Source of the DNA: Saprospiraceae bacterium
GTDB lineage: Bacteria; Bacteroidota; Bacteroidia; Chitinophagales; Saprospiraceae
Direction: 5' to 3'
DNA length: 64,000 nucleotides
Assembly (NCBI GenBank): GCA_020436935.1
Contig: JAGQWX010000018.1
Location: 19,529-83,528, forward strand
Both the position numbers and the translations under genes were made by a program. Under the pieces are notes generated by a model. The model had not been told where the DNA came from, did not search any database, and was given only the letters and a program-made list of their open reading frames with translations. This document shows, piece by piece, positions 13,427 to 47,562 of this stretch; position 1 is the stretch's first letter; each line of letters opens with the position of its first letter.

Positions 13427-16400
13427 TCAAAAATTCTCATGCTTGATGACTACTCCCGGTTGAATCACAAGGTTGCCATCTTGAACAATTAATGATGTTT
13501 TAAACCTCAGGTTGCTTTCGAATATATAATCCTTGTAAATGGTACCAGGAGCATCAATGGTAAAACTGTTGACTTTTGTGTTCCTGAAGTCAAAATGCAT
13601 ATTATATGGCGATTGGTTGACAATTATAAAATCCGCTAAACTGAGATTTGCGCCAGTATTGGGTCCAAATTTCAATGTTTGGATGCTTGTATTATGCGAT
13701 GTTCCAAGAATTTTAAGGGTGCTGTTTCCCCTACAAATGATGAGAGGGTCGAAGAAGCCAGCAGTTTTTGTAAGCCCGATGACAGGTTTTTGATACTCGT
13801 CATAATTGTTGCCCATCTCCATATTTACATTTTCAAAATAAAACTTACCACCTTTACTGATATCTAAAAACTGATTGACCCGCATCAAAGTTTGTAAGCC
13901 TACACCTCCATCGTTTCCCAGAAATTCTACTTTTAGATCTGTAAGAGATATACTCCCGGTAAAGAACAATGCATTCAATTTCAGGAAAATATCTTTATCC
14001 ACACCGCGAAATGAGATATTTGCGATCGATACATTATTATTAACAAAAAGGGTATCGTCCTCATGGTATCCATATTGGTCTACGACCAGAGTGTCGGCAT
14101 TTTTTAAGGAAGTCAGATTTGTAGGACAACCTCCTGATATATTGCTCCAATTGGGCAAAGGGTCAAATTCATTGGTAAAACCAATCCAATAGAGATTTCC
14201 TGAAAATGTGTTGGGTGAAAAGTTGATTCCCTGATTGTTGCCAATATCAATACTCTCAGGTGCATGAAAGATTGTGCCACCGACAGCTTGTACTCCTTCA
14301 AGTGCAATTTTCCCGAGAATACATAGGTTGTTAACGGTCTTCATCTCCATTTTTATACTCGATGAAGTTGATTTAATGGATGCCTGAGGAAGTGAGTTGC
14401 CAGGACCGCGAATTCCATAATTTACCCGAAGACCTGCGCCGGAGTTGGTTCCAATTTCAAGTTTTGCATTGTTTCCCAATATGAGGGAGTCCACAGATAT
14501 TGAGTCAAATGAATTACGTACGATGCCTTCACCACTCAAAATCAACTTCTCCGCAAAAAAATCGTATGTCAAATTTAGAAGCAGCGAATTGTTTAGTTCA
14601 ATTTGTTTGAGGGGAGTAGGCTTGTGTTGTAGTACTTTTGCTTTTACAGAAGCTTGAGATCCATTGATTGTGGTAGGGCTAAACTCATTGCTACATAATC
14701 TTACCAAAGAATCTGACTCAATGTGGCTGGTTCCCAGATTAAACGTTTTCTCACCATCAGCCCCCTGAATGCTACGCGCATAGATATCATGATTGTTGGT
14801 ATTAAAAGTGCCTCCATCAATGGATAAAATTTCGTCAAGGTTTAGATCATGGTCAATATTAAATATGCTGCCGGAACCTTTGAAATAAAGATATAAACCA
14901 GGCAAGTTGTTTTGTATATTTATATCGCCTTGACCATCCAGCCATATTTGATATAATTGTGCAGCTGCATTCGTATTGAATACTGCTTGAGGTCCTATTG
15001 TGAAAGAGCCTGTATTGACATGTGGCTTTGTTCCTTGCGTATATCCGAATGGCTTATAAAGGGTTACAGCCCCATTATTTGGATTGCTTATCCATGTGAA
15101 ATCTTGGCATTTAGTTCCAATGGAGTAATCCATTAGAATTTCCTGACCCGATCCATCAAAAGAAAAATCATCAATGATAACATTATCGACAGCTCTTGGT
15201 ACACAGGCACCAGGATTATTTAGTGTTTTGGTTTGCAAAGACCAATGGCCTGCGTCAAACCAATTACCGCTGCCATCGACCCAATAGTAAGTTGTGCTTG
15301 TGGTATTTAATGTGGCATTCCAATAGGCATTACTGCCGATCACCTTTCCGGAGGTGACATTAAAAGATGCCCCACCTGTAGTTTTGATGTTGTGAATTAA
15401 GGCCCTTGGAAAAGTAACTGTGCCGATGGTTCTTTTGAAAAAATAGTCATTCTCATTTTTTATGGTAAACATAGTCAAGAGATTGCATGGCCCCCCAGGA
15501 GGTGTTGTAACACTGCCGTTTATGGTCAATTCATTAAAATATGCCCAATTTTCAAAGGTGCTAAACTCTATGGTTTTTCCTGGTTGAATGATTTCGAGAA
15601 GATTGTTGATGGTCATTGAACCTGCGATTCTCGTCAGAAATTCATTGTCAATTTCCAAGTGGTTGATTATTGGATTTCTTACATCCATATTTAACTCATC
15701 TCTATCTAATGGAGGGTCAAAGTTTGTAAGGATAGCATGATCAAGATGAATGTCGTCAAGAAAAAATCTTGGTGAGGATATGGTATGATTTCCGTGCAGT
15801 GTTACTGCTCCAGTATTATTGTATTTCGAATAAAAAAGATTTGTACAAATTATAATCGAGTTATCAAGATAAAGGTCTTTTATTAATGCGTTATCGCTAG
15901 AATATCCCGGAACCCCAACAAACATTGATCCAACAGTGATTTGTGTGCTTTCAGCTAAAAGCACACCTTTATAAAACCTGAAAGTAGCGTTAACTGTCAA
16001 TGGACTTTTGACATTTAAAGCTACTCCTTCTACATCAAAAGTAAGATCATTAAGATCGATATTTTTTGTATCAATCAAGTGTTCATCTTTAAATCCAGGA
16101 CCATTGATCGACCATTTATTAACATGTGGTACGTTATATGTAGTTATAACATTGCTTTCAAAGGTAAGGTCGCCATGCACTTGAATGAATAGGGGGTTGA
16201 GGTTTGAGCCCTGAAAGATAAGTGTTGCGTTTTCTGCATAAAAGTTGTTGGCAAAAAATGTTGTTCCAGCTGGAAAAATGACAGTAATATGTCCAGCGTC
16301 GGCGTTGGTAAGAAAAACATTGTCTGTTGGAGATGGTATGGTGCCTAATGGGTTTCCACTTACGTCTGTCCAATTCGCAGGATCGTTGTAGTTACCTGTC

Positions 16401-16516
16401 TGAACCTTATCCCAAAAGTGATCTAAGGCTATACCTTTTATAGCAAAGGTAATTGATAGTAAAAAGATAAAAACCCTTGGTTTTGAACTTTTTAATTCAA
16501 TTTTAAAATGCATCAA
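13427..16516 (-). CDS. Large (1029 aa) Asn/Thr/Gly-rich secreted protein; possible beta-helix or adhesin-like
   Basis: N-terminal signal peptide. Highly Asn-rich and repetitive. No recognisable T9SS C-terminal domain (CTD) and no catalytic motif. Confidence 0.65.
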   Translation of the reverse strand: MMHFKIELKSSKPRVFIFLLSITFAIKGIALDHFWDKVQTGNYNDPANWTDVSGNPLGTIPSPTDNVFLTNADAGHITVIFPAGTTFFANNFYAENATLIFQGSNLNPLFIQVHGDLTFESNVITTYNVPHVNKWSINGPGFKDEHLIDTKNIDLNDLTFDVEGVALNVKSPLTVNATFRFYKGVLLAESTQITVGSMFVGVPGYSSDNALIKDLYLDNSIIICTNLFYSKYNNTGAVTLHGNHTISSPRFFLDDIHLDHAILTNFDPPLDRDELNMDVRNPIINHLEIDNEFLTRIAGSMTINNLLEIIQPGKTIEFSTFENWAYFNELTINGSVTTPPGGPCNLLTMFTIKNENDYFFKRTIGTVTFPRALIHNIKTTGGASFNVTSGKVIGSNAYWNATLNTTSTTYYWVDGSGNWFDAGHWSLQTKTLNNPGACVPRAVDNVIIDDFSFDGSGQEILMDYSIGTKCQDFTWISNPNNGAVTLYKPFGYTQGTKPHVNTGSFTIGPQAVFNTNAAAQLYQIWLDGQGDINIQNNLPGLYLYFKGSGSIFNIDHDLNLDEILSIDGGTFNTNNHDIYARSIQGADGEKTFNLGTSHIESDSLVRLCSNEFSPTTINGSQASVKAKVLQHKPTPLKQIELNNSLLLNLTYDFFAEKLILSGEGIVRNSFDSISVDSLILGNNAKLEIGTNSGAGLRVNYGIRGPGNSLPQASIKSTSSSIKMEMKTVNNLCILGKIALEGVQAVGGTIFHAPESIDIGNNQGINFSPNTFSGNLYWIGFTNEFDPLPNWSNISGGCPTNLTSLKNADTLVVDQYGYHEDDTLFVNNNVSIANISFRGVDKDIFLKLNALFFTGSISLTDLKVEFLGNDGGVGLQTLMRVNQFLDISKGGKFYFENVNMEMGNNYDEYQKPVIGLTKTAGFFDPLIICRGNSTLKILGTSHNTSIQTLKFGPNTGANLSLADFIIVNQSPYNMHFDFRNTKVNSFTIDAPGTIYKDYIFESNLRFKTSLIVQDGNLVIQPGVVIKHENF

Positions 16517-34437: not shown

Positions 34438-35047
34438 AAACATCGTATTTGATTTTGGAGGCGTATTGCTCGACCTTGATATTGAGCGATCTTTCATCGA
34501 ATTGGCAATGGTACTGGATATGGATACCAACGATCTCCAAATCCTGGTTGACAAAATGATGCCTTACCTGAGCAGATACGAGAAGGGAGAAATCAATAGC
34601 GAAACCTTTATTTGGCACGTTCAAAAGCTAAGTGCAAAACAGGTAGACCCCCGTGAACTCATAGAAGCCTGGAATGCCATGCTTTTGGGATGGAATCCTG
34701 TGAAGCTGCAACAGTTGGAAGAACTTTCTTCAAAATTCAATCTTTATCTTTTCTCCAATACCAATGAATTGCACATGCAGTGGGTGCTAAAGGATTTGAA
34801 ATTGAACCATGGCATCACTGATTTTGATCAGCGATTTTTCAAAAAAGCATATTATTCATACAAAGTGGGTAAGAGGAAGCCGGATGCAGAAACCTATCAG
34901 TTCATTCTCGATAATGCCGGCATACTTGGAGAAGAATCCATGTTTATTGATGATACAGAGCAAAATGCAATTGCAGCGGGAGAAGCTGGTTTTCAGGCTG
35001 TTCACCATCCAACCAATGCAGGATTGGAATTTTTATTTGAGCTATAA
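34424..35047 (+). CDS. HAD-superfamily hydrolase (subfamily IA-like)
   Basis: [13 protein letters not shown] motif I; HAD fold length. Confidence 0.75.
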
Positions 35048-38000
35048 CTCTTCGTCGAGTAGCACTTCATTTTCTGCGAGAAGATCGGTCCTCATCAAAG
35101 GGATTTCCAGATAAAAAGTGGTCCCTTCTCCTTGTACAGAGTCAAAGTAAATGCGTCCGCCCATTGTTTCCAACATATTGGCAGTAATGGCCAACCCAAG
35201 TCCGGTACCCGAGCTCTTTGTGGTGAAATTTGGAGTAAATACTTTATCCTTCATTTCTTCTGCAATGCCCGAGCCGTTGTCAGTGACCCTGATTTTAGCT
35301 ATGTCTTTTTCCTTAGTCAGTTCCAGTACAATATGACCACGCTTGTCTTCAGGAATGGATTGGACAGCATTTTTGAGGATATTGTTGAGGATCCGCACCA
35401 AATGATTTCTGTCTGCGAAAACATATATCTCATTCATGGGCTCGATCAGGTCCACATCCATATCATCTCTTTTTCTGAACAAATCATGGACGTGCTCAAC
35501 CACCTCATTCAAAATGATTTTTTCATTTACTGTTTTTGGCATTGCGGCAAAATTGGAGAAAGAATTGGCAATGTGAGAAAGGTTGTTGATCTGCTCCATC
35601 AATGTTCCTGAGATTTTTTGAATCATCTTTTTGGCATTCTCAGGGTCTGAACTCGCAGCACGTTCCAGGTATTGGAGACTCAACTTCATTGGAGTCAGAG
35701 GGTTTTTGATTTCATGCGCAACTTGCTTTGCCATTTCCCTCCAGGCCATTTCCCTTTCTGTTTTGGCGATGATTTCGGCGCTTTTGTTGATTTCTTCTGT
35801 AAGCTTGTTGTATTCGTGGATGAGGTCTCCAATTTCATCTGAACTTGCCCAGCTCAGCTTGTTGTATGTTTTTCCCAGCTTAAACTGGCTGAGGCTTTCT
35901 CTCAGCTTGATCAGTGGCTTGGTGATGGAATTTGAGATACCCAAAGATATTGCAATGGCCAACAAAAACAGAAATATGTAAACGTTGAGCAGGGTGCCAA
36001 CATAGTTTTTGAGTTCTCCTGTAGATGATGCTGTTGATTTGTGGAATGTAATATAAGCGAACGGGTCTTTATTGCCCTTATACATAGGGATGAGGACCTC
36101 GTCATCGGTAAGGTTGTAAGACTTTACTCCGAGATTGTCCTTGTTGTTGTTGAGACTCTTGATTTGTTTCATGACGTACTGAGGTAACCTCGAGCGGTAT
36201 GCCCCTGTATTTCGTGCAGATGCCAATTGACCTTCACTGTTATATAGCGCCAGCCTTTTGCCATAAATAGCATTGATTTCGTCAAATTCATTCAGGATGA
36301 GGAAGTATGCTCCGGTTTTTGTAGGTACCTCTCTGGTCCTGAGGTTGATGTCGAGAGCCAGCGCATTACTCCTTTGGTCAAATTGTTCCAAATTTTTCTG
36401 GACATTGACATTGTTGAAATATACAGCGGTAATAACACCAATTACGGTGAAAGAAAAAACAATCAAGCCGATCACACTTAACTGGAGCCGCAACCTGAGT
36501 GAATTTTTTTCACTGATGCGCAGCCCATATTCGTTGGGTAGGAATTCTCTTAAAGAATTGAGTACAGTAAGCCCACCCAAAAAACTGAGCATTAATATAA
36601 AAATCAAAGAGAAAAGCGATATAGGTTTGAGTAGACCATCTTCCGGAATGAATGATGCGACCTGAAATGTATTGTCGATGGAATAGGTATAAAACTTATA
36701 ATTGTAGATGGAGGTATCCCGGCTGATGTAATCCGGGATCTCAGATTTGATGTAATCTATACCATTACCGCCTATCAACTTTTTGTCTTTGAAGAAGAGG
36801 TAATTGCCGCTGTACGGTTTCAACTCAGTGTTGTGAAATTTCAAAATCATGTGCACTGAGTCAGTAATGGGCTTATACCAGATAAAATTGGGTGGTGTTG
36901 GTTTGTAATAGAGGTTGTTTCCAACGAGTTTACTGTTGTTGATTTCTTCTCTTGAAGCCTCTATATCACTGGAATGATTGTTGAATAAGTTTTTTCCTTC
37001 CTGATCAAAAAGCTCTATATCAGTGAGTTTTTGGTTGCCAACTGTCCCATCTTTGGTTGACCCTATGATAGAGTAGATATAGGACTGAAAGTCAAAATAG
37101 TCATAGAACTGGTCCGATGATCTGTAGGCAAGCTGTTTGAGAAGATTGCTGAGCTCAAGGGTATAACTGGTGATTTTGATCTTGCTCAGGTCATCTTGTG
37201 ACAACTTATAAAAGCTGTCCTCCAGTTTATTTTTCTCGTTTTTGATGGTGCTGTATATAGCTCCCTTATAGGTGGAGAAAGTGAGAAACACCGAGTGAAA
37301 AACAACCCACCAAACAAAAAAACTGAGGTGTCGGTATTCCCTGTCCTGGAATACATCAAAGCTGAGCAGAAAGATCAGAATGAAGACAGCCAGTGTGAGC
37401 AAAACTATATTGTCAAGAGAGAAGAAATACATGCCACAGACGACCACAATCGTCACGAGGTAAATCAACATCTTTTTTGCAAAAGGGAAGGGACCACTGG
37501 TATTCCAAAAAAATAAATTGACCAGATAAAAATTGATAAAACAGTATCCTATCAGTACGATGGTAAAAAGCAATTCGTTGAGACCGCCCCCAAGAGGAGA
37601 ATTAATGGCAAAATCAAGGTGGCCAAGGTTTATGAAATTTTTGCTCTGATAAAAAATAAAGAAAAATATGATGGCTGTAGTACTTGCACCAAGTATCTGT
37701 CTTAAGGTAGGATTGCTTCTGTGAAGTCGTTCTACAAAATATGGATGGAGCGTCACTAAAATAATGTAAATGACAAATACCAAATCGGCTATCAGATCTA
37801 TCAGACTTAATTTGCCAAAAAAGTTGAGATACTTGACTTGATAGGCAGTCATTTCTTCCAAAAGAAAGGGGTTGATCCACAGTTTAAAGATGGCCCAGAA
37901 TATGCCTATCCCTGTCAGATAAAATAGGATGATCAGGCGCTGTTCACCCTCCTTCAAACCAAGAATTAGAGATCTCCATAAAGAAAGCAATCCAATTATT

Positions 38001-38548
38001 CCCAGAAGCCAAATGCATAATACACCCAACTGAATGTAAGAAGACACGGACTTAGCTGATTTTGAAATGGGCAGCGTTGCGGACAACACCTTGATATATC
38101 CATCAGGTGATTTTACTGCTGTCTTATATTTGGAGATGCCTTCCTGAATATAATCTCCCGTTGGTTTTATCAAACCGAGCTCTTCGTCTTCAAGCAATAC
38201 GAAATCACAAACCAGTTGTTCGTTTCTTATCTTTGAGTTGAAAACAATGTTAAGATTTGAATGATTTTTGATCTCCCTTTTATCATTCCAGTAAACTATG
38301 GAGTCGTTCTGGAAAATTTCAATCCGGTAGGCATTATTTTCAAGAATATCAAAATTTCTGGTGCGTAATGCCTCATTGATGAGGTCCAAATCGGTCTGGA
38401 GCCTGACCGATAGTTCAGTGAGGCTATTTACATCTTTATGTTGGTAATATTTTTTGATAGAAATCAATCCTATCAAAGCCAAAACAAAAAAGATGTTGAG
38501 GATTCTTACAAAATTCTTATTCAAGACCGTGCTTATTGCAATGAACAC
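35042..38548 (-). CDS. Large (1168 aa) multi-transmembrane sensor histidine kinase with no adjacent response regulator
   Basis: About ten predicted TM helices and two extracytoplasmic regions. HisKA H-box (VAHEIKNPLTPMKLSLQYL). HATPase_c (VTDNGSGIAEEMKDKVFTPNFTTKSSGTGLGLAI). Confidence 0.8.
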   Translation of the reverse strand: MFIAISTVLNKNFVRILNIFFVLALIGLISIKKYYQHKDVNSLTELSVRLQTDLDLINEALRTRNFDILENNAYRIEIFQNDSIVYWNDKREIKNHSNLNIVFNSKIRNEQLVCDFVLLEDEELGLIKPTGDYIQEGISKYKTAVKSPDGYIKVLSATLPISKSAKSVSSYIQLGVLCIWLLGIIGLLSLWRSLILGLKEGEQRLIILFYLTGIGIFWAIFKLWINPFLLEEMTAYQVKYLNFFGKLSLIDLIADLVFVIYIILVTLHPYFVERLHRSNPTLRQILGASTTAIIFFFIFYQSKNFINLGHLDFAINSPLGGGLNELLFTIVLIGYCFINFYLVNLFFWNTSGPFPFAKKMLIYLVTIVVVCGMYFFSLDNIVLLTLAVFILIFLLSFDVFQDREYRHLSFFVWWVVFHSVFLTFSTYKGAIYSTIKNEKNKLEDSFYKLSQDDLSKIKITSYTLELSNLLKQLAYRSSDQFYDYFDFQSYIYSIIGSTKDGTVGNQKLTDIELFDQEGKNLFNNHSSDIEASREEINNSKLVGNNLYYKPTPPNFIWYKPITDSVHMILKFHNTELKPYSGNYLFFKDKKLIGGNGIDYIKSEIPDYISRDTSIYNYKFYTYSIDNTFQVASFIPEDGLLKPISLFSLIFILMLSFLGGLTVLNSLREFLPNEYGLRISEKNSLRLRLQLSVIGLIVFSFTVIGVITAVYFNNVNVQKNLEQFDQRSNALALDINLRTREVPTKTGAYFLILNEFDEINAIYGKRLALYNSEGQLASARNTGAYRSRLPQYVMKQIKSLNNNKDNLGVKSYNLTDDEVLIPMYKGNKDPFAYITFHKSTASSTGELKNYVGTLLNVYIFLFLLAIAISLGISNSITKPLIKLRESLSQFKLGKTYNKLSWASSDEIGDLIHEYNKLTEEINKSAEIIAKTEREMAWREMAKQVAHEIKNPLTPMKLSLQYLERAASSDPENAKKMIQKISGTLMEQINNLSHIANSFSNFAAMPKTVNEKIILNEVVEHVHDLFRKRDDMDVDLIEPMNEIYVFADRNHLVRILNNILKNAVQSIPEDKRGHIVLELTKEKDIAKIRVTDNGSGIAEEMKDKVFTPNFTTKSSGTGLGLAITANMLETMGGRIYFDSVQGEGTTFYLEIPLMRTDLLAENEVLLDEEL

Positions 38549-38740: not shown

Positions 38741-39244
38741 TCAGTTGAGTATTTTCACTCCACTGGCCATAAACTTCAATTCAACTTTTGGCTCAGTTAT
38801 TTTTGCGATTTCCGCTGGGGATTTTCCCTCATCTTCAGCAAAATGCTTCAATTCTTCGACACTTGTCATGGCCTTATAAGCATTGCCTTTCATCACAATT
38901 TTTCCACCGCCCAAATCCTTTGGCATGAAAAATCCGTAATCTTTAAATTGGACAAACATTTCAGGTGCATTGCTGTCTTTCTCAGAAACAACATTCATCC
39001 AGCAACCTTTCATTTGGCAAACTGCAGCAACCTTGCCTTCCACTACAATATCGTTCATCTTTTCTTTGCCTTCCATTTTCATCAGGAGGTCATCGTAAGA
39101 AACAATTTTTTTAGCATTGAAATCTTCTCCAATGCTGGACTTTACATTTTGTTCACTGAGTGATACATTGCTGGTCTTACAAGCAATCACAGACAGCAGG
39201 CACACTGCTGATACTACATAAAAAAGATTCTTCATTGATCGCAT
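38741..39244 (-). CDS. Small lipoprotein (DUF4920-like) with a conserved CxMKGCWM motif
   Basis: Lipobox LLSVIACK. AAVCQMKGCWMN. 167 aa. The family name is from memory, with moderate certainty. Confidence 0.55.
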   Translation of the reverse strand: MRSMKNLFYVVSAVCLLSVIACKTSNVSLSEQNVKSSIGEDFNAKKIVSYDDLLMKMEGKEKMNDIVVEGKVAAVCQMKGCWMNVVSEKDSNAPEMFVQFKDYGFFMPKDLGGGKIVMKGNAYKAMTSVEELKHFAEDEGKSPAEIAKITEPKVELKFMASGVKILN

Positions 39245-39479
39245 AGTTCAAAAATTTGAAATTATTTGGTTGAAATTATTTTGCAAACTTAGGCGATTGC
39301 AGCAAATGAAACAATAATTTTTTCTAATCTCAGTTATAAAAACAATACAGTGGACATACGTGTTTTCAACAGGATCATTCAATAACAGATCCGATTACCA
39401 CCATATTTTTAATACCACCATATTATTATTAGCGCATAAGTAAAGTTTTACCTCTCCTGTTTTATCGAAAAAATGATCA

Positions 39480-41084
39480 TTGACACAGGGTATTTATTCA
39501 TCTAAAAAGTATGAACATATGAGGAAACTTATGATTTTATGCTGCATTTGTGCAATTGCAGAATTCGCTATTGCTGGCGACACCTGTAAGTCAGGAAATT
39601 GTTCGAATGGCTTAGGTACACTGGTATCAGACACTTATACATACAAGGGTACCTTTCTCAAAGGGCAATTCCATGGCAAGGGTAAAATAGTCTTCAATGA
39701 CAAGAGTCAATACGAAGGCGCATTTCAAAATGGCTATATTGAAGGAGTAGGGGAGTATCGCTATTCCGGAGGTCATGTTTACAAAGGTGATTTCATCAAA
39801 AACGCCCGAAGTGGAAAGGGAACCATGTATTATGCCAATGGTGACAAATATAAAGGTGCCTGGAAGAAAGACATGATGCACGGGATAGGCATCTACTCAT
39901 TCAAAGACGGCAGTGAATACCGCGGTGAGTTTAAGGACAATGTATTTGCCGGAAGAGGAATGATGACCATGCCCAATGGTGAAGTGTTGAAAGGCATCTG
40001 GGAAAACAACAAAATGATAGGGCCAGACAAGAACCAGGACAGGAGTGATAATACTCCTGTAAACAACTGCAATGCTCAATATTGTCATGAAACCCAGGGC
40101 ACTTACCGGTACAGCGATGGCACCATGTATGTTGGTCACTTTATGAATGGTAAGCCTGCCGGTAAAGGAAGAGTCAATTACAGCAACGGCAGTGTTTATA
40201 TTGGAGACTGGCTCAATGGTGCTCCGCACGGAGAAGGCAAGCTGACCACCTCAACTGGTCAAATTGTCGAAGGGTCATGGTTGGCCGGAAGATATCAAAA
40301 GCAAAAAACTTCAGAACCTGCAAGACAGTCAGGTTCTATGATTGCCTCCTCATCCAAAAAGGACGGCAAAACAACAATATACAGTCTTGTAGTTGGCATT
40401 GCCAACTACAAGACCATGCCTTCTCTGCGGTATACCGATGATGACGCCTACCAGTTTTTTGCCTTTGCCAAAAGCCCTGAAGGGGGAGCAGTTGAAGACA
40501 ATAATATTTCAATTTTGATAGATGATGCTGCTACAGCCTCACGCATCGTCACTGAACTAAAAAGAATTACCTCAAAGGCTGATGCCGATGATGAGATCAT
40601 GGTGTATCTTTCAGGTCATGGACTCGACGGTGGTTTTGTGCCATTTGATTATGGGGAAGGAGCATCAGTATTGCCCTACAAAAACCTGCTCAGCATTATT
40701 GATGAATCCCCCGCAAAAAACAAGATTTGTTTTGCTGATGCCTGTTACTCTGGTAGCATGGCTGCGAGAACCACATATTTTGCCGGACTCGAAGATTTTT
40801 ATACCCAACTCAATGGGAGCGGTCCGGGCACAGTGCTGATCATGTCGTCTATGAACCAGGAAGTATCGCTCGAATATTCAGGCATTCGGCAGGGCATATT
40901 TTCCCACTTTCTAATCAAAGGCCTCAAAGGCGCAGCCAATACCCAAAAAGACCGCATCATCACGGTAGAAGAACTTTACAGCTATGTTTCTGACAGAGTT
41001 AAAACTTATACCAACCATGCTCAAAATCCCAATATTGCAGGCAATTATGACCCATATATGCCGGTAGCTTTCCTACGTCAATAG
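39480..41084 (+). CDS. Secreted MORN-repeat protein fused to a caspase-like (peptidase C14) domain
   Basis: Signal peptide from the internal Met (MRKLMILCCICAIAEFAIA). About 8-9 MORN repeats (YKG.F..G..HGKG...). C-terminal caspase fold with His in VYLSGHGLDGG and Cys in CFADACYSGSMA. Confidence 0.75.
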   Translation: MTQGIYSSKKYEHMRKLMILCCICAIAEFAIAGDTCKSGNCSNGLGTLVSDTYTYKGTFLKGQFHGKGKIVFNDKSQYEGAFQNGYIEGVGEYRYSGGHVYKGDFIKNARSGKGTMYYANGDKYKGAWKKDMMHGIGIYSFKDGSEYRGEFKDNVFAGRGMMTMPNGEVLKGIWENNKMIGPDKNQDRSDNTPVNNCNAQYCHETQGTYRYSDGTMYVGHFMNGKPAGKGRVNYSNGSVYIGDWLNGAPHGEGKLTTSTGQIVEGSWLAGRYQKQKTSEPARQSGSMIASSSKKDGKTTIYSLVVGIANYKTMPSLRYTDDDAYQFFAFAKSPEGGAVEDNNISILIDDAATASRIVTELKRITSKADADDEIMVYLSGHGLDGGFVPFDYGEGASVLPYKNLLSIIDESPAKNKICFADACYSGSMAARTTYFAGLEDFYTQLNGSGPGTVLIMSSMNQEVSLEYSGIRQGIFSHFLIKGLKGAANTQKDRIITVEELYSYVSDRVKTYTNHAQNPNIAGNYDPYMPVAFLRQ

Positions 41085-42476: not shown

Positions 42477-43883
42477 TTATTCCCCTTCTTTCCTGGGCTG
42501 TATCTTAGGCTGTTCCTCGCTGTTTTTTACAATGGATTCCGGAAGGGACATTCCGCTTTGTTTGAGGAAATCATTCAATTGTGGCATCATACCATACAAG
42601 CCTTTGACAAAGTTGCTTACACCCTGGCCGCTGCCTGAGTCGTATACCACCACTTTGTCGATGTCAAGGTCTTTGATGGCCGAAGTCTGGATGGAAGTCA
42701 GTTCGGCAAGTTTATCTACCATCAGATAGTTGATGGCACTCTGAGCATCACCTCCAGAGGCGTCCACCAATTTTTTGAAACCTTCTGCCTGTTTTGTCAG
42801 CAACTCTTCCATACCTTTTGCCTGAGCCGATAGTTTCAGAATGATGGCATCGGCCTCACCCTTGGCAATCTCTCTTTGTCTCTGTGCTTCAGCCTGAGCA
42901 GCAATGATGGCTTTTTCCTTTTCTATATCTGCTATTACTACCTCGTCGGCCTGTCTTTTTGCTTTCTCCATCTGCTTTCTGGCGATTTCCGCATTTTCCT
43001 CCGCTTTGTATGCTTCTTCCAACGCTTTCGCCGAAGCTACTTTTTGGGCTGCGGTAGCTTTTCTACCAGCCTCAGCTACCTCAATGTCTTTAAGGGCGTT
43101 GGAGTTGGCAACTTTAATTGAAGCTGAGTTGGTACCTTCTACTGCAGCAGCCACTGCTTCGGCTTCACCGATTTCAGCTTTACTGTTGGCATTTGCTACC
43201 TTGACGCGTTCTTCTTGTTTGGCTTCTGCCTGTCCGATGGAACCTACTCTTTCTTCAAGGGCCACTTTTACCTTGGCCTCGTTGATGGCTTTTGCTGCAG
43301 CTTCCTGACCCAGTGCCCTGATGTAACCGGATTCGTCAAGGATGTCGGTCACGTTCACGTTGATGAGTTCAAGACCTATTTTATGCAACTCAATACCGAT
43401 GTTGGTAAAAACCGATTCAACAAACTTATCCCTGTCGGTATTCAATTCTTCAATATCCATATTGGCGATGACCAGCCTCATCTGTCCCATGATGATGTCG
43501 TGAGCAAGACTTGCGATATCGTCTCTTTTCAATCCCAATACTCTCTCTGCTGCGGCGATCATCAGATTTGGTTTATTGCTGATGCCCACGGTAAATTGAG
43601 CAGGCACAGAAACCCTGATGTTTTGTTTTGACAGCGCGTCAACTAGATTGACATCGATCGACATCGGTGTCAGGTCCATGTATTTGTAATCCTGGATGAC
43701 AGGCCATACAAAAGTCGCACCACCTGCATAACACTTGGCAGCACTCTCAGACCCTGTCTTACCGTATACAACAAGAATTTTATCACTCGGACACCTTTTA
43801 TACCTGCTGATAAAAAAGACCAGCAGCAAAATGATCACGAATAAAATAAAGGCAACAAGAATAATCATTTCTACATTCATCAT
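42477..43883 (-). CDS. Flotillin-like SPFH/band-7 protein (YqiK-like)
   Basis: N-terminal TM, SPFH domain, long Ala/Glu/Lys-rich coiled coil (EAKVKVALEE...AEAKQEERVK). Confidence 0.85.
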   Translation of the reverse strand: MMNVEMIILVAFILFVIILLLVFFISRYKRCPSDKILVVYGKTGSESAAKCYAGGATFVWPVIQDYKYMDLTPMSIDVNLVDALSKQNIRVSVPAQFTVGISNKPNLMIAAAERVLGLKRDDIASLAHDIIMGQMRLVIANMDIEELNTDRDKFVESVFTNIGIELHKIGLELINVNVTDILDESGYIRALGQEAAAKAINEAKVKVALEERVGSIGQAEAKQEERVKVANANSKAEIGEAEAVAAAVEGTNSASIKVANSNALKDIEVAEAGRKATAAQKVASAKALEEAYKAEENAEIARKQMEKAKRQADEVVIADIEKEKAIIAAQAEAQRQREIAKGEADAIILKLSAQAKGMEELLTKQAEGFKKLVDASGGDAQSAINYLMVDKLAELTSIQTSAIKDLDIDKVVVYDSGSGQGVSNFVKGLYGMMPQLNDFLKQSGMSLPESIVKNSEEQPKIQPRKEGE

Positions 43884-43920
43884 TAGATAATTTATGGTGA
43901 TAACTATATTTCAAAGGGTG

Positions 43921-44433
43921 CTATCTTTGGGCTTGAACCCAAAGGACGTCATCTTTCTCATCAAAAATCAAAACTTCTTCCCCTGTTTTGATTTCCATAT
44001 TGTCGTTACTTTTGGCGGGAAGTTCACGTTCCACGCCATTGATTTCTACGGTCACCAATCCAGCCTCGCCCGGCAATATCCTGAGATATACTTTTGCTTT
44101 TTTGCCAATGGCTTCTTCAGCTTTCCAGTTGACATTTTTTTGATTTCTAAGCAATAGTTTGAAAATATAAGCCAGTATAGCTGCGGTAACCACACCTGAT
44201 ATCAGAGCAGTCAGTATGGCCAGGGACATATTGTATCCCGAGAGCATCAAATACCTGAGTACCCATGCCCCGACAGCCAGCATGGTCAGTACAGATTTGA
44301 AAATCCCGAAACCTCCGTCCATGGACATGTCTCCATCTCCTGCGTCGGTGTCACCACCAAGTATTCCGAGAAGTAACAGGATGACCAATAGCGCAGCTGC
44401 GATGATGGCGATATATGCGAGGGTTTCTGTCAT
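43921..44433 (-). CDS. NfeD-like (YqiJ-like) membrane protein, the usual partner of flotillin
   Basis: TM helices plus a C-terminal OB-fold-like region (GLVTVEINGVERELPAKS). Directly upstream of the flotillin gene on the same strand. Confidence 0.7.
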   Translation of the reverse strand: MTETLAYIAIIAAALLVILLLLGILGGDTDAGDGDMSMDGGFGIFKSVLTMLAVGAWVLRYLMLSGYNMSLAILTALISGVVTAAILAYIFKLLLRNQKNVNWKAEEAIGKKAKVYLRILPGEAGLVTVEINGVERELPAKSNDNMEIKTGEEVLIFDEKDDVLWVQAQR

Positions 44434-46068: not shown

Positions 46069-47562
46069 TCAGATTTTACTTTGGATCCATTCTTCGAGGT
46101 CAAGGTATATAAATGCCCTCTTTTCATATGGATCGTATTTGAGATTTTGCACTTCCTCCAAAAACTTTCTGAACTCTTGTCTTCTGTCTCCAATCGGTGT
46201 TCTCACCAGTTTTGAGAAGAAGGATATGGCCTTGTGTTGCAAGGCATTGCCATCATGCAACTTACTCGCAATGATTTTGGTGTTATTGGCCAGATATTCC
46301 ATAATCTCTATGTTGCCCATATCGTAATGAGCCATCATAAACATGATCCTGGTATACACCTGTATGTCCTGTCTGAGAGCACCCATCTCCATTTTCTGAA
46401 TGTCGTTGAGATAATCTATGGCCTTGCCCGGATCTTTCGCCATCAGATGCATCCATGCGAACTTAAAATAGAATACCATGATTCTGTGCGAATCCAATTT
46501 GGATCTGTACCGGTTGATCCTTCGCATGGTCCCTGGAATGGCTGCAATGCCCTCTTTGTATTTTTTCTGAATGAAAAACTTGTTGAGCCTTCCATGGTGG
46601 ACATACATGAAAGATATGATTTGTGAATTAGGGCTAAACTTCTTGTAGTTGGCCTTTCTGAATTTCTCCAATTCATCCAGGCGAACTATGAATTTATCTG
46701 TTTCTCCGAGATTGAAAGAACACGTAAGCAGGTAGTGAAATCCCCGCATAAAAAGGTCAGGATCTTCCTCTATCATCTGAGGGGCAGACTTAAAGGCTTT
46801 GATCCACTTGTCTGCATATACGTAACAATTCTCAAAGTCAAGTGAAATATAATAATACCATACCAATGACTGATACAAATACACCTGTTCCGGGAAGTTG
46901 AGTTTTTTGATGTCGAGTTTTGGTAGGTTGTCCTCAAAGAAAGCATTGATACGTTCGTGTTCCTCGGCATTTTTGACATGCCCAAACTTGATGTAAAAGG
47001 CATGGAGGAGAAGCCTTAGATTAGAAAGTTTTGTGGAATTGAGAATTTCCTGACTCGTTTTTAGGGCAAGAGCAGTCAGATTTTCTGTTGTATCGGGTCC
47101 ACTTCTGGTGATGTGACGTGATTCGATCGTCTTTTCGGTTTCGAGCAGAGACAGAAAAAGGATGTCATTGTTTGACTTTAAAGCCAGTGCTTTTGCTTTT
47201 TCGAGGAGCTTAAGACTCTGCAGATAAAGCCCTTTACTGTATAAGATATCCACAAAATCCAGATATTCCCTGATCTCTATATCGGCCTTCTTTTGGATAT
47301 AGATCAACCGCAGACTGATCATGATTTGTTTGTACAAATGCCGCTTGAGATTGCTGTATTGAGACTTGTCTGTATCCTTTAATTTTGAAAAAATCAGGGG
47401 CTCATTGAGCTCTTTTTGTTTGTCCATCAATTCAAAAAGCTGGACGTATTTGAGGTTGTCACTGTCCTGAATGCGGTTGGCATAGACAGTGAAATTTCGT
47501 TTTTCTGCCTTGGAAAGCGATTTTATCAGTTGAAAAAGCTGGTCGGTTTGCGATATAGGCAT
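46069..47562 (-). CDS. Hypothetical all-helical (TPR-like) cytoplasmic protein, divergent from glnK
   Basis: 497-aa ORF, no recognisable motif. Confidence 0.5.
   Translation of the reverse strand: MPISQTDQLFQLIKSLSKAEKRNFTVYANRIQDSDNLKYVQLFELMDKQKELNEPLIFSKLKDTDKSQYSNLKRHLYKQIMISLRLIYIQKKADIEIREYLDFVDILYSKGLYLQSLKLLEKAKALALKSNNDILFLSLLETEKTIESRHITRSGPDTTENLTALALKTSQEILNSTKLSNLRLLLHAFYIKFGHVKNAEEHERINAFFEDNLPKLDIKKLNFPEQVYLYQSLVWYYYISLDFENCYVYADKWIKAFKSAPQMIEEDPDLFMRGFHYLLTCSFNLGETDKFIVRLDELEKFRKANYKKFSPNSQIISFMYVHHGRLNKFFIQKKYKEGIAAIPGTMRRINRYRSKLDSHRIMVFYFKFAWMHLMAKDPGKAIDYLNDIQKMEMGALRQDIQVYTRIMFMMAHYDMGNIEIMEYLANNTKIIASKLHDGNALQHKAISFFSKLVRTPIGDRRQEFRKFLEEVQNLKYDPYEKRAFIYLDLEEWIQSKI

What the first reader, a model, noticed from the sequence alone, without database searches (positions are those of the whole stretch)
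39480..41084. Secreted MORN-repeat / caspase (C14) fusion protein with an intact His-Cys dyad
The N-terminal half is ~8-9 canonical MORN repeats (YxGxFxxGxxHGxG). The C-terminal half has caspase-fold signatures with the catalytic contexts SGHG and DACYSG. A Sec signal peptide precedes both. This is a periplasmic or surface orthocaspase with a MORN targeting module. Bacterial caspase-like proteases with accessory repeat domains are poorly characterised and are implicated in programmed cell death and defence. It sits between a DUF4920-like lipoprotein and an orphan giant histidine kinase. The juxtaposition is observed; any functional link is speculative.
Basis: partly seen in the sequence, partly recalled or inferred. 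Interest (0 to 1): 0.6.

Follow-up and report, generated by a model that had tools for sequence, protein, structure and literature searches.

The report
Exported MORN-caspase protease with conserved lipoprotein partner
This Saprospiraceae gene encodes an exported caspase-family cysteine protease fused to MORN repeats; the fusion is already catalogued but unstudied, and the new point is that it is nearly always paired with a small lipoprotein gene of unknown function (DUF4920).

Summary
The ORF at 39480-41084 (+), whose true start is probably ATG 39519, encodes a signal peptide, nine MORN hairpins in two Cys-x4-Cys-capped blocks, and a Peptidase_C14 domain.

The protein is not new. The identical sequence is in NCBI as "caspase family protein [Saprospiraceae bacterium]". 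At least 571 species genomes encode relatives. MORN|metacaspase architectures were tabulated in 2016.

Its motifs are metacaspase/orthocaspase-like (DAC[H/Y]SG, acidic S1 positions), so cleavage after Arg/Lys rather than Asp is expected. Nothing supports a cell-death or defence role: the window is ordinary chromosome and the protein is exported.

The DUF4920 neighbour is not incidental. It lies divergently upstream in 58 of 74 assessable species loci, while all other neighbours vary. It is predicted to be an OB-fold lipoprotein. The histidine kinase is only genus-level synteny. In one subclade DUF4920 is followed by a TPR-sensor nucleotide cyclase and an HD protein.

Verdict: an uncharacterised member of a known protease kind, probably periplasmic, with a conserved and apparently undescribed partner. 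Interest is moderate.

The parts
39519..41084 (+). MORN-caspase gene, 521 aa plus stop.
   Evidence: ORF list. Identical to the 521-aa NCBI protein P0001. Start and stop codons verified.
39519..39578 (+). Predicted Sec-type signal peptide, MRKLMILCCICAIAEFAIAG
   Evidence: Hydropathy profile. An N-terminal hydrophobic region before the first Cys pair occurs in 69 of 76 homologues. This is a heuristic; no dedicated predictor was run.
39579..40028 (+). Cys-x4-Cys hairpin cap (C23/C28) plus MORN block A of six hairpins
   Evidence: Pfam MORN. PDB MORN1 6t6q at E=6.7e-41. Model strands E22-E169 at pLDDT above 90. C28 is invariant and C23 at least 90% conserved.
40068..40298 (+). Second Cys-x4-Cys cap (C184/C189) plus MORN block B of three hairpins
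   Evidence: C184 and C189 are invariant. Exactly two caps occur in 73 of 76 homologues. Model strands E192-E260.
40299..40373 (+). Disordered Lys/Arg/Ser-rich linker between the MORN array and the protease. A candidate pro-region processing site (inferred).
   Evidence: pLDDT below 50 at residues 263-278. Sequence.
40374..41081 (+). Peptidase C14 (caspase/metacaspase-fold) domain
   Evidence: Pfam PF00656. Foldseek hits to metacaspase 7qp0 (3.6e-9), MALT1 (1.4e-8) and Yca1 (2.5e-8). Domain profile against PDB: Yca1 1.9e-8, AtMC4 7.2e-8.
40617..40619 (+).
   Evidence: Invariant in 76 homologues. Aligns with the His of YSGHG in Yca1 and AtMC4. Lies near the C-terminal end of strand 359-369.
40743..40745 (+).
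   Evidence: Invariant. Aligns with the Cys of DSCHSG in Yca1. In the AtMC4 variant entry 6w8r the corresponding residue is Ala. Lies at the end of strand 401-409.
40746..40820 (+). Disordered loop directly after the catalytic Cys, in the position of a p20/p10 linker. It contains Arg417, a candidate autoprocessing site (inferred).
   Evidence: pLDDT below 50 at residues 410-434. Arg or Lys lies within 10 residues after CxSG in 72 of 73 homologues.
38741..39244 (-). DUF4920 lipoprotein gene, the conserved divergent partner. Predicted OB-fold with an invariant VCQxKGCWM motif.
39245..39518 (.). Shared divergent intergenic region of 274 bp. A Bacteroidota-type -7 element, TAAGTTTG, lies on the minus strand at 39284-39291, 40 nt upstream of the DUF4920 ATG.
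   Evidence: Coordinates. The block is conserved in the 64% and 55% relatives. No family-wide motif was found.

Best explanation
The gene encodes an exported, most likely periplasmic, clan CD family C14 cysteine endopeptidase of the prokaryotic orthocaspase/metacaspase-like type.

After signal-peptide removal the mature protein has three parts:
- a rigid beta-sheet scaffold of two MORN blocks (6 + 3 hairpins), each opened by a Cys-x4-Cys hairpin that is probably disulfide-stapled;
- a flexible basic linker;
- a caspase-fold domain with the His367/Cys409 dyad.

Because the S1 positions are acidic and the caspase QACRG context is absent, it should cut after Arg/Lys and not after Asp. It probably matures by autoprocessing in the disordered loop after the catalytic Cys and/or in the MORN-protease linker.

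The MORN array most likely acts as a protein-protein interaction or oligomerisation module, not as a membrane binder.

The protease works together with, and is co-regulated with, the divergently transcribed OB-fold lipoprotein DUF4920, which could be its membrane tether, inhibitor/chaperone or substrate.

Shown: domain identity, dyad conservation and alignment, family-wide export features, and the conserved gene pair. Inferred: periplasmic location, P1 specificity, autoprocessing, and the nature of the DUF4920 relationship.
For: - Domains: Pfam MORN and Peptidase_C14 both score above their cut-offs.
- Fold: the N-terminal half matches MORN1 arrays (E about 1e-22). The C-terminal half matches metacaspases, MALT1 and procaspase-1 (E 4e-9 to 5e-8).
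- Dyad: invariant in 76 homologues. It aligns with the Yca1 and AtMC4 catalytic residues, and the variant entry 6w8r has Ala under Cys409. In the model the His and Cys lie at or near the ends of successive strands.
- S1 pocket: the third Asp of the TDDDAY motif aligns with the Asp of Yca1 C-I-N-D-A, and the Asp two residues before the Cys is invariant. All characterised non-caspase C14 members prefer a basic P1 because of an acidic pocket (PMC5756287).
- Export: a hydrophobic N-terminus occurs in 69 of 76 homologues. The paired Cys caps are invariant, as is typical of oxidising compartments. There is no Por_Secre_tail domain and no lipobox.
- Partner: DUF4920 lies divergently upstream in 60 of 80 species loci, or 58 of 74 with enough DNA to judge, at a median gap of about 180 bp. 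No other neighbour family exceeds 27 of 81 loci.
- Reciprocal test: 29 of 54 DUF4920 loci carry the protease.
- The pair persists down to about 38% protein identity.
- MORN arrays act as dimerisation and protein-interaction modules (PMC7725318).
Against: - No biochemical data exist for any member of this family.
- The S1-pocket Cys that matters in TbMC2 (Cys92) and AtMC9 (Cys29) is replaced by a near-invariant Thr306, so activity could be low or the specificity altered.
- The signal peptide was judged heuristically only.
- Residue-level 3D superposition of the dyad could not be done, because the fold tools return no coordinates.
- DUF4920 occurs without the protease in about 46% of DUF4920 loci, and the protease occurs without DUF4920 in about 22% of loci. 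The partnership is therefore not obligate.
- Conserved adjacency within a single bacterial family could partly reflect shared ancestry.
- No complex prediction could be run.
Confidence: 0.6

Rival explanations
1. It is a cytoplasmic programmed-cell-death or anti-phage defence effector caspase, activated by infection or stress to kill the cell.
For: Weak domain-level matches only. The PADLOC 'caspase' model matches at E=2.3e-10 but covers only profile positions 3-129 of 453. The NCBIfam EACC1-associated caspase model scores 80.9 bits.
Against: - The EACC1 score is far below its 140-bit cut-off.
- None of the neighbours tested against PADLOC matched.
- The window is housekeeping chromosome: glutamate synthase, URO-D, ACC carboxyltransferase and DPP-IV.
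- The export signal and Cys-pair caps are conserved family-wide.
- The only conserved neighbour is a lipoprotein.
Confidence: 0.04
2. It is a catalytically weak or inactive pseudo-protease, whose caspase fold and MORN array serve only as a binding scaffold in the envelope.
For: The S1-pocket Cys is replaced by Thr306. The review warns that an intact dyad does not guarantee activity and that loss of this Cys cuts activity by about 90% in AtMC9 (PMC5756287).
Against: - His, Cys and the flanking SGHG and DAC(H/Y)SG motifs are invariant across 76 sequences that are only 37-66% identical overall. This indicates selection on catalysis.
- Known pseudo-orthocaspases replace the dyad itself with Tyr/Ser (abstract of PMC6426788).
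Confidence: 0.12
3. It is a released nutritional or predatory protease, carried by outer-membrane vesicles or exposed at the cell surface. It would degrade environmental or prey proteins, with the MORN array binding the target surface.
For: The protein is exported. The window also encodes DPP-IV and TonB-dependent receptors, which suggests peptide scavenging. A Baltic Sea survey speculated that Bacteroidetes metacaspases help degrade phytoplankton polymers (PMC4933709).
Against: - There is no T9SS C-terminal domain, no lipobox and no other outer-membrane translocation signal.
- It is a single conserved copy paired with a small lipoprotein. It does not lie in a polysaccharide- or peptide-utilisation locus.
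Confidence: 0.15
4. The protease is functionally tied to the adjacent giant histidine kinase, for example by cleaving its sensor domain or by being regulated by it.
For: The HK-DUF4920-caspase-EamA order is kept in the window species and in the 64%-identical relative L174. In other clades the same position is often held by another transmembrane signalling protein, a TPR-cyclase.
Against: The kinase is absent from this position at 55% identity and in all more distant loci examined. No kinase family appears among the recurrent neighbours in 81 loci.
Confidence: 0.05

Closest known systems
Orthocaspases, i.e. prokaryotic C14 p20 proteases. The only biochemically characterised one cited is MaOC1 of Microcystis aeruginosa (PMC5756287).
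   Same: Bacterial origin, a caspase-fold p20 core with a His-Cys dyad, an acidic S1 context that predicts a basic P1 residue, likely autoprocessing, and a modular accessory domain.
   Different: - The accessory module is N-terminal, whereas the review says orthocaspase extra domains are commonly C-terminal.
- The protein has a signal peptide.
- The S1-pocket Cys is Thr.
- It has a conserved lipoprotein partner.
- It comes from Bacteroidota (Saprospiraceae), not cyanobacteria.
Type I/II metacaspases Yca1 (4f6o), TbMCA2 (4af8) and AtMC4 (6w8s)
   Same: These are the best sequence-profile and fold matches. The YSGHG and D(S/A)CHSG motifs and the S1 Asp align.
   Different: They are eukaryotic and cytosolic, and their activation depends on Ca2+ through acidic insertions and a p10 280-loop. 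Here the His-to-'PxDF' segment is short and lacks the acidic-rich insert seen in the Yca1 alignment. Ca2+ dependence was not tested.
MORN1 of Toxoplasma, Plasmodium and Trypanosoma (6t6q, 6t4d, 6t4r; PMC7725318)
   Same: 23-residue beta-hairpin MORN repeats forming an extended sheet (E=6.7e-41 by sequence, 2.9e-22 by fold).
   Different: MORN1 is a eukaryotic cytoskeletal protein made only of repeats. Here there are two blocks, each opened by a Cys-x4-Cys hairpin, in an exported protein fused to an enzyme.
MORN|metacaspase architectures tabulated from Baltic Sea metagenomes (PMC4933709, Table 1)
   Same: The same domain order, with one to four detected MORN units in front of a metacaspase domain.
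   Different: That paper only lists them. It gives no export signal, no Cys caps, no partner gene and no function.
Gingipains and other secreted clan CD proteases of Bacteroidota (families C25 and C11). This comparison rests on my own knowledge, not a tool result.
   Same: Extracytoplasmic Arg/Lys-directed clan CD cysteine proteases with beta-rich accessory domains in the same phylum. A few homologues have Peptidase_C25 (PF01364) in their precomputed Pfam domain lists.
   Different: They belong to different families (C25/C11, not C14) and are exported by T9SS through a C-terminal domain that is absent here.

Membership tests
Peptidase family C14 (Pfam PF00656, clan CD) | Profile score above the curated gathering threshold | tested here: met
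   52.5 bits against a 21.4 cut-off, covering profile positions 5-224 of 233.
Peptidase family C14 (clan CD) | Caspase/hemoglobinase fold | tested here: met
   An AlphaFold model (mean pLDDT 83) matches metacaspases 7qp0 and 4f6o, MALT1 4i1p and procaspase-1 3e4c at E 4e-9 to 5e-8, probability 1.00.
Peptidase family C14 (clan CD) | Catalytic His then Cys, each following a hydrophobic beta-strand, aligned with known catalytic residues | tested here: met
   H367 and C409 are invariant in 76 homologues. They align with the Yca1 and AtMC4 dyad, and 6w8r carries Ala at the Cys position. Strand ends are seen in the model. A residue-level 3D superposition was not possible.
Caspases in the strict sense (C14A, Asp-specific) | Basic S1 pocket: the Gln161/Arg164 context around the catalytic Cys of caspase-3 (the QACRG pentapeptide is recalled from my own knowledge) | tested here: not met
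   The motif here is DAC(H/Y)SG, with Asp in place of Gln and His/Tyr in place of Arg. The defining residues are taken from PMC5756287.
Metacaspase/orthocaspase group (C14B-like, basic P1) | Acidic S1 pocket residues | tested here: met
   Asp309 aligns with the Asp of Yca1 C-I-N-D-A, and Asp407 (two residues before the Cys) is invariant. Activity itself cannot be tested here.
Metacaspase/orthocaspase group | Conserved S1-pocket Cys (TbMC2 Cys92, AtMC9 Cys29) | tested here: not met
   The aligned position is Thr306, at least 90% conserved. Its importance is described in PMC5756287.
Metacaspases types I-III | A p10 domain with the Ca2+-binding 280-loop, and Ca2+-dependent activation | tested here: inconclusive
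   The C-terminal region aligns only weakly with the Yca1 p10 (domain 2 score 0.4 bits). No acidic insert follows the His. Ca2+ dependence needs biochemistry.
NCBIfam NF047832, caspase of the EACC1-associated type (conflict systems) | Score above the curated cut-off | tested here: not met
   80.9 bits against a 140 cut-off.
PADLOC defence-system caspase | Full-length model match plus the partner genes of the system | tested here: not met
   The match covers only profile positions 3-129 of 453. None of the tested neighbours matched.
MORN repeat (Pfam PF02493) | Repeat profile above cut-off and a beta-hairpin array fold | tested here: met
   105.9 bits against 22.5. PDB MORN1 at E=6.7e-41. Foldseek 2.9e-22. 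Nine hairpins in the model.
Sec/SPase I-exported protein | N-terminal positive n-region, hydrophobic h-region and a small-residue c-region | tested here: met
   MRK + LMILCCICAIAEFAIA + G. The feature occurs in 69 of 76 homologues. This is a heuristic only; no SignalP-type tool was available.
T9SS cargo | C-terminal Por_Secre_tail/CTD domain | tested here: not met
   There is no such Pfam hit. The protein ends with the last strand of the caspase domain.
DUF4920 (Pfam PF16267), for the partner gene | Profile score above cut-off | tested here: met

The most novel reading that the evidence does not exclude
The MORN-caspase and the OB-fold lipoprotein DUF4920 form a periplasmic proteolytic signalling module. 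In many Saprospiraceae it would feed into a membrane-spanning TPR-sensor nucleotide cyclase and an HD phosphohydrolase encoded directly downstream of DUF4920, and possibly into the giant histidine kinase in the window species. Regulated cleavage in the envelope would then be converted into cyclic-nucleotide or phosphorelay signalling. That would be a bacterial caspase homologue acting as a signalling protease outside the cytoplasm.
Probability: 0.12. Interest if true: 0.7.

Novelty: new member of a known kind. Interest (0 to 1): 0.35.

Why it matters
What bacterial caspase homologues do is a long-standing open question. Only one orthocaspase is cited as biochemically characterised (PMC5756287), and cell-death roles are often assumed. 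This family points elsewhere: an exported enzyme, probably specific for Arg/Lys, with a scaffold domain and a conserved lipoprotein partner. That suggests envelope proteolysis, not suicide.

The conserved pair gives a concrete two-gene system to test. It occurs in at least one cultured species, Phaeodactylibacter luteus KCTC 42180 (L069). It also gives a first functional lead for DUF4920, which no paper in the searched library mentions.

Tried and rejected
- **Shared operator in the divergent intergenic region.** K-mer enrichment over 60 species gave only AT-rich words, barely above shuffled controls.
- **The 17-nt direct repeat at 39396-39428**. It occurs only in the 100%-identical contigs L001-L004 and not in the 64% or 55% relatives. 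Its count in the window is unremarkable.
- **RNA elements.** There are no Rfam hits anywhere in the window.
- **A link to the histidine kinase.** It is conserved only to genus level.
- **'Short' MORN-less or single-block forms (P0241, P0242).** These are frameshift-split full-length genes that still sit next to DUF4920.
- **Defence-system membership.** PADLOC and the EACC1 model do not support it.
- **DUF4920 against PDB by sequence.** No hit.
- **DUF4920 against afdb50.** The library was unavailable.
- **HD or TPR-cyclase homologues in the window.** None were found by tblastn.
- **DNA-level tandem duplication of the MORN units.** None was detected.
Full report
**1. Observation**

The ORF 39480..41084 (+) exists as listed.

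- Pfam assigns MORN repeats at E=2.8e-31 and Peptidase_C14 at E=6.9e-14. The C14 match covers residues 303-520 and almost the full profile. A weak overlapping Peptidase_C13 hit is also reported.
- Seven canonical YxGx[FW]..G.G cores occur with a strict 23-residue period in two groups, 5 + 2. The AlphaFold model (mean pLDDT 83, MORN part above 90) adds a degenerate terminal hairpin to each group. The total is therefore 6 + 3 = 9 hairpins.
- SGHG and DACYSG are present. Their His and Cys codons are at 40617-40619 and 40743-40745.
- The likely start is ATG 39519, not TTG 39480. It yields a classical MRK/hydrophobic/AIAG N-terminus and reproduces exactly a 521-aa NCBI entry, "caspase family protein [Saprospiraceae bacterium]".
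- The gene order is HK, DUF4920, MORN-caspase, EamA.

Residue numbers below use the ATG start.

**2. The protease domain**

In an alignment of 76 homologues at 37-66% identity, His367 and Cys409 are invariant. So are Gly366, Gly368, Asp407 and Ala408 of the flanking SGHG and DAC motifs (Ser365 is at least 90% conserved), along with D307-D308-D309-A-Y, KSPxGGA and ExSxE.

A profile of the caspase domain alone finds these solved structures:

| Structure | E-value |
|---|---|
| Yeast metacaspase Yca1 | 1.9e-8 |
| Arabidopsis MC4 | 7.2e-8 |
| T. brucei MCA2 | 9e-5 |
| Legumains, GPI transamidase, MALT1 | weaker |

In the printed alignments SGHG lies on YSGHG and DACHSG on DSCHSG. In the AtMC4 variant entry 6w8r, which has Ala at this position where 6w8s has Cys, the Ala sits under Cys409.

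Foldseek on the model independently returns metacaspases, MALT1 and procaspase-1 at probability 1.00. In the model the His and Cys lie at or near the C-terminal ends of successive strands (359-369 and 401-409), separated by a helix.

A coordinate-level superposition could not be produced with these tools.

**3. Which kind of C14 protease**

The caspase-3 specificity residues Gln161 and Arg164 (the QACRG context) are replaced by Asp and His/Tyr (residues from PMC5756287). The third Asp of TDDDAY aligns with the Asp of Yca1 C-I-N-D-A, and the Asp two residues before the Cys is invariant.

All characterised non-caspase C14 enzymes cleave after Arg/Lys because of an acidic pocket (PMC5756287). A basic P1 residue is therefore the best inference, and "caspase" in the Asp-specific sense is not supported.

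One caveat: the pocket Cys (TbMC2 Cys92, AtMC9 Cys29) is Thr306 here. The same review warns that an intact dyad alone does not prove activity.

The 25-residue loop directly after Cys409 is disordered in the model. It carries Arg or Lys within 10 residues in 72 of 73 homologues. Together with the basic MORN-protease linker, this is where autoprocessing would be expected (inferred).

The NCBIfam EACC1-type caspase model scores below its cut-off, and PADLOC gives only a partial domain match.

**4. The MORN half and export**

The N-terminal half matches apicomplexan and trypanosome MORN1 by sequence (E=6.7e-41) and by fold. Those structures showed MORN arrays to be protein-protein and dimerisation modules with no membrane binding (PMC7725318). 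"Targeting module" is therefore not the best reading.

Each MORN block begins with a Cys-x4-Cys hairpin. Cys28, Cys184 and Cys189 are invariant and Cys23 is at least 90% conserved. Exactly two such caps occur in 73 of 76 homologues, and a 664-aa relative has four cap-plus-MORN units.

Conserved paired cysteines fit an oxidising extracytoplasmic compartment, as does the hydrophobic N-terminus seen in 69 of 76 homologues. There is no lipobox and no T9SS C-terminal domain. A soluble periplasmic protein is thus the most likely outcome (inferred).

**5. Distribution and prior knowledge**

More than 1,300 database clusters match, and the 120 best-scoring ones all share the full-length architecture. 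At least 571 GTDB species genomes encode a relative. Nearly all of the 80 loci kept are labelled Saprospiraceae, Lewinellaceae or unclassified Bacteroidota. They include the cultured Phaeodactylibacter luteus KCTC 42180.

MORN|metacaspase architectures were already tabulated from Baltic Sea metagenomes in 2016 (PMC4933709). The fusion is catalogued but not characterised.

Orthocaspase accessory domains are usually described as C-terminal (PMC5756287). Here the module is N-terminal.

**6. Neighbourhood**

The DUF4920 gene lies immediately upstream on the opposite strand in:

- the window;
- relatives at 64%, 55% and about 39-43% identity;
- 60 of 80 species-representative loci, or 58 of 74 with at least 1.2 kb of upstream DNA, at a median gap of about 180 bp.

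Clustering all flanking ORFs shows no other neighbour family in more than 27 of 81 loci.

Starting from DUF4920 instead, 29 of 54 assessable metagenome loci carry the divergent protease. In five of these the proximal gene is one of two tandem MORN-caspase paralogues, each keeping the SGHG motif and the catalytic Cys (in one, L137, the following motif reads DACHAG).

Loci lacking DUF4920 form one clade of about 7-9 species plus several scattered singletons. The adjacency is therefore ancestral and was lost several times.

The kinase is retained only in the 64% relative and is gone at 55%.

**7. What DUF4920 is**

It is a lipoprotein of about 165 aa with lipobox VIAC and an invariant VCQxKGCWM motif. 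Its C-terminal helix segment (TSVxELRHYAEDEGKS..) is highly conserved.

No solved structure matches by sequence. No paper in the searched library mentions the family.

Its role relative to the protease, whether tether, inhibitor/chaperone or substrate, cannot be decided here.

**8. Extended cluster**

In about 26 of the 60 paired genome loci, DUF4920 is followed on its own strand by one or both of:

- a protein of about 750 aa with a signal peptide, a long TPR array, one transmembrane segment and a class III nucleotide cyclase domain;
- an HD-domain protein of about 200 aa.

In L061, and probably in L068 (a 951-aa member of the same cluster that was not scanned), the cyclase and HD domains are fused. 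In L074 the cyclase sits directly next to the protease without DUF4920. HD also follows DUF4920 in 17 metagenome loci. The window itself has no HD or cyclase homologue.

This is the basis of the "periplasmic proteolytic signalling" reading, which remains speculative.

**9. Context and verdict**

The window is ordinary chromosome, with glutamate synthase, URO-D, DPP-IV, TonB receptors and several kinases. It has no Rfam hit and no mobile or defence signature.

The finding is real and correctly described at domain level. The protein is an already annotated, widespread but unstudied orthocaspase-type protease, best filed as a new member of a known kind.

The value added here is threefold: the reclassification away from Asp-specific, cell-death expectations; the evidence for export; and the conserved, apparently undescribed DUF4920 partnership.

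Noticed in passing
L037:1750-4020(-), L041:1817-4087(-), L061:1188-4175(-), L042:3742-4317(-), L074:2073-4277(-): In a subclade, DUF4920 is followed on its own strand by a signal-peptide/TPR/TM/class III nucleotide cyclase protein and/or an HD-domain protein of about 200 aa. The two are fused in L061, and probably in L068, which was not scanned. In L074 the cyclase directly flanks the MORN-caspase without DUF4920.
   Followed up: partly
window 39585-39602 and 40068-40085 (Cys23-Cys28, Cys184-Cys189): Each MORN block opens with a conserved Cys-x4-Cys beta-hairpin (consensus CxxGxCxNGxG). The duplication unit seems to be 'cap plus 2-6 MORNs', with four such units in P0052. I did not find this cap described.
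   Followed up: partly
window 39396-39428: A 17-nt direct repeat (TACCACCATATT..., 1.9 copies) lies about 90-120 nt upstream of the protease ATG. It occurs only in contigs of the same species (L001-L004) and not in the 64% or 55% relatives.
   Followed up: yes
window 39284-39291 (minus strand): TAAGTTTG matches the Bacteroidota -7 promoter consensus TAnnTTTG (consensus recalled from my own knowledge). It lies 40 nt upstream of the DUF4920 ATG, inside a block conserved in L174 and L005. No equivalent motif was found for the protease gene.
   Followed up: partly
window 35042-38548 (-): A 1168-aa histidine kinase whose first roughly 900 residues are multi-pass membrane and loop regions with no Pfam domain. 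No response regulator is adjacent. It is conserved in position in the 64% relative (L174) only.
   Followed up: partly
L102, L120, L137, L159, L173: Tandem duplicated MORN-caspase paralogues lie next to DUF4920. Each keeps the SGHG motif and the catalytic Cys (in one, L137, the motif reads DACHAG). The distal copy in L159 is the longer multi-block type.
   Followed up: yes
L175:4445-6140, L176:4274-5993: Apparent 'short' caspase genes are full-length MORN-caspase genes split by frameshifts into 2-3 called ORFs. These are either assembly errors in long-read MAGs or pseudogenes. DUF4920 is still adjacent.
   Followed up: partly
window 13427-16516 (-) and 46069-47562 (-): Two large ORFs of 1029 aa and 497 aa have no Pfam match at E<=1e-5.
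   Followed up: no
window 42477-44433 (-): A Band_7/SPFH (flotillin-like) gene is followed by a 170-aa membrane protein with no Pfam hit. It resembles an SPFH-NfeD pair. The Band_7 gene is also present near the protease in the 64% relative.
   Followed up: no
P0280, P0287, P0294, P0297, P0310: Some homologues of the caspase domain have Peptidase_C25 (gingipain, PF01364) in their precomputed Pfam domain lists. This hints at how close this subfamily sits to other secreted clan CD proteases of Bacteroidota.
   Followed up: no
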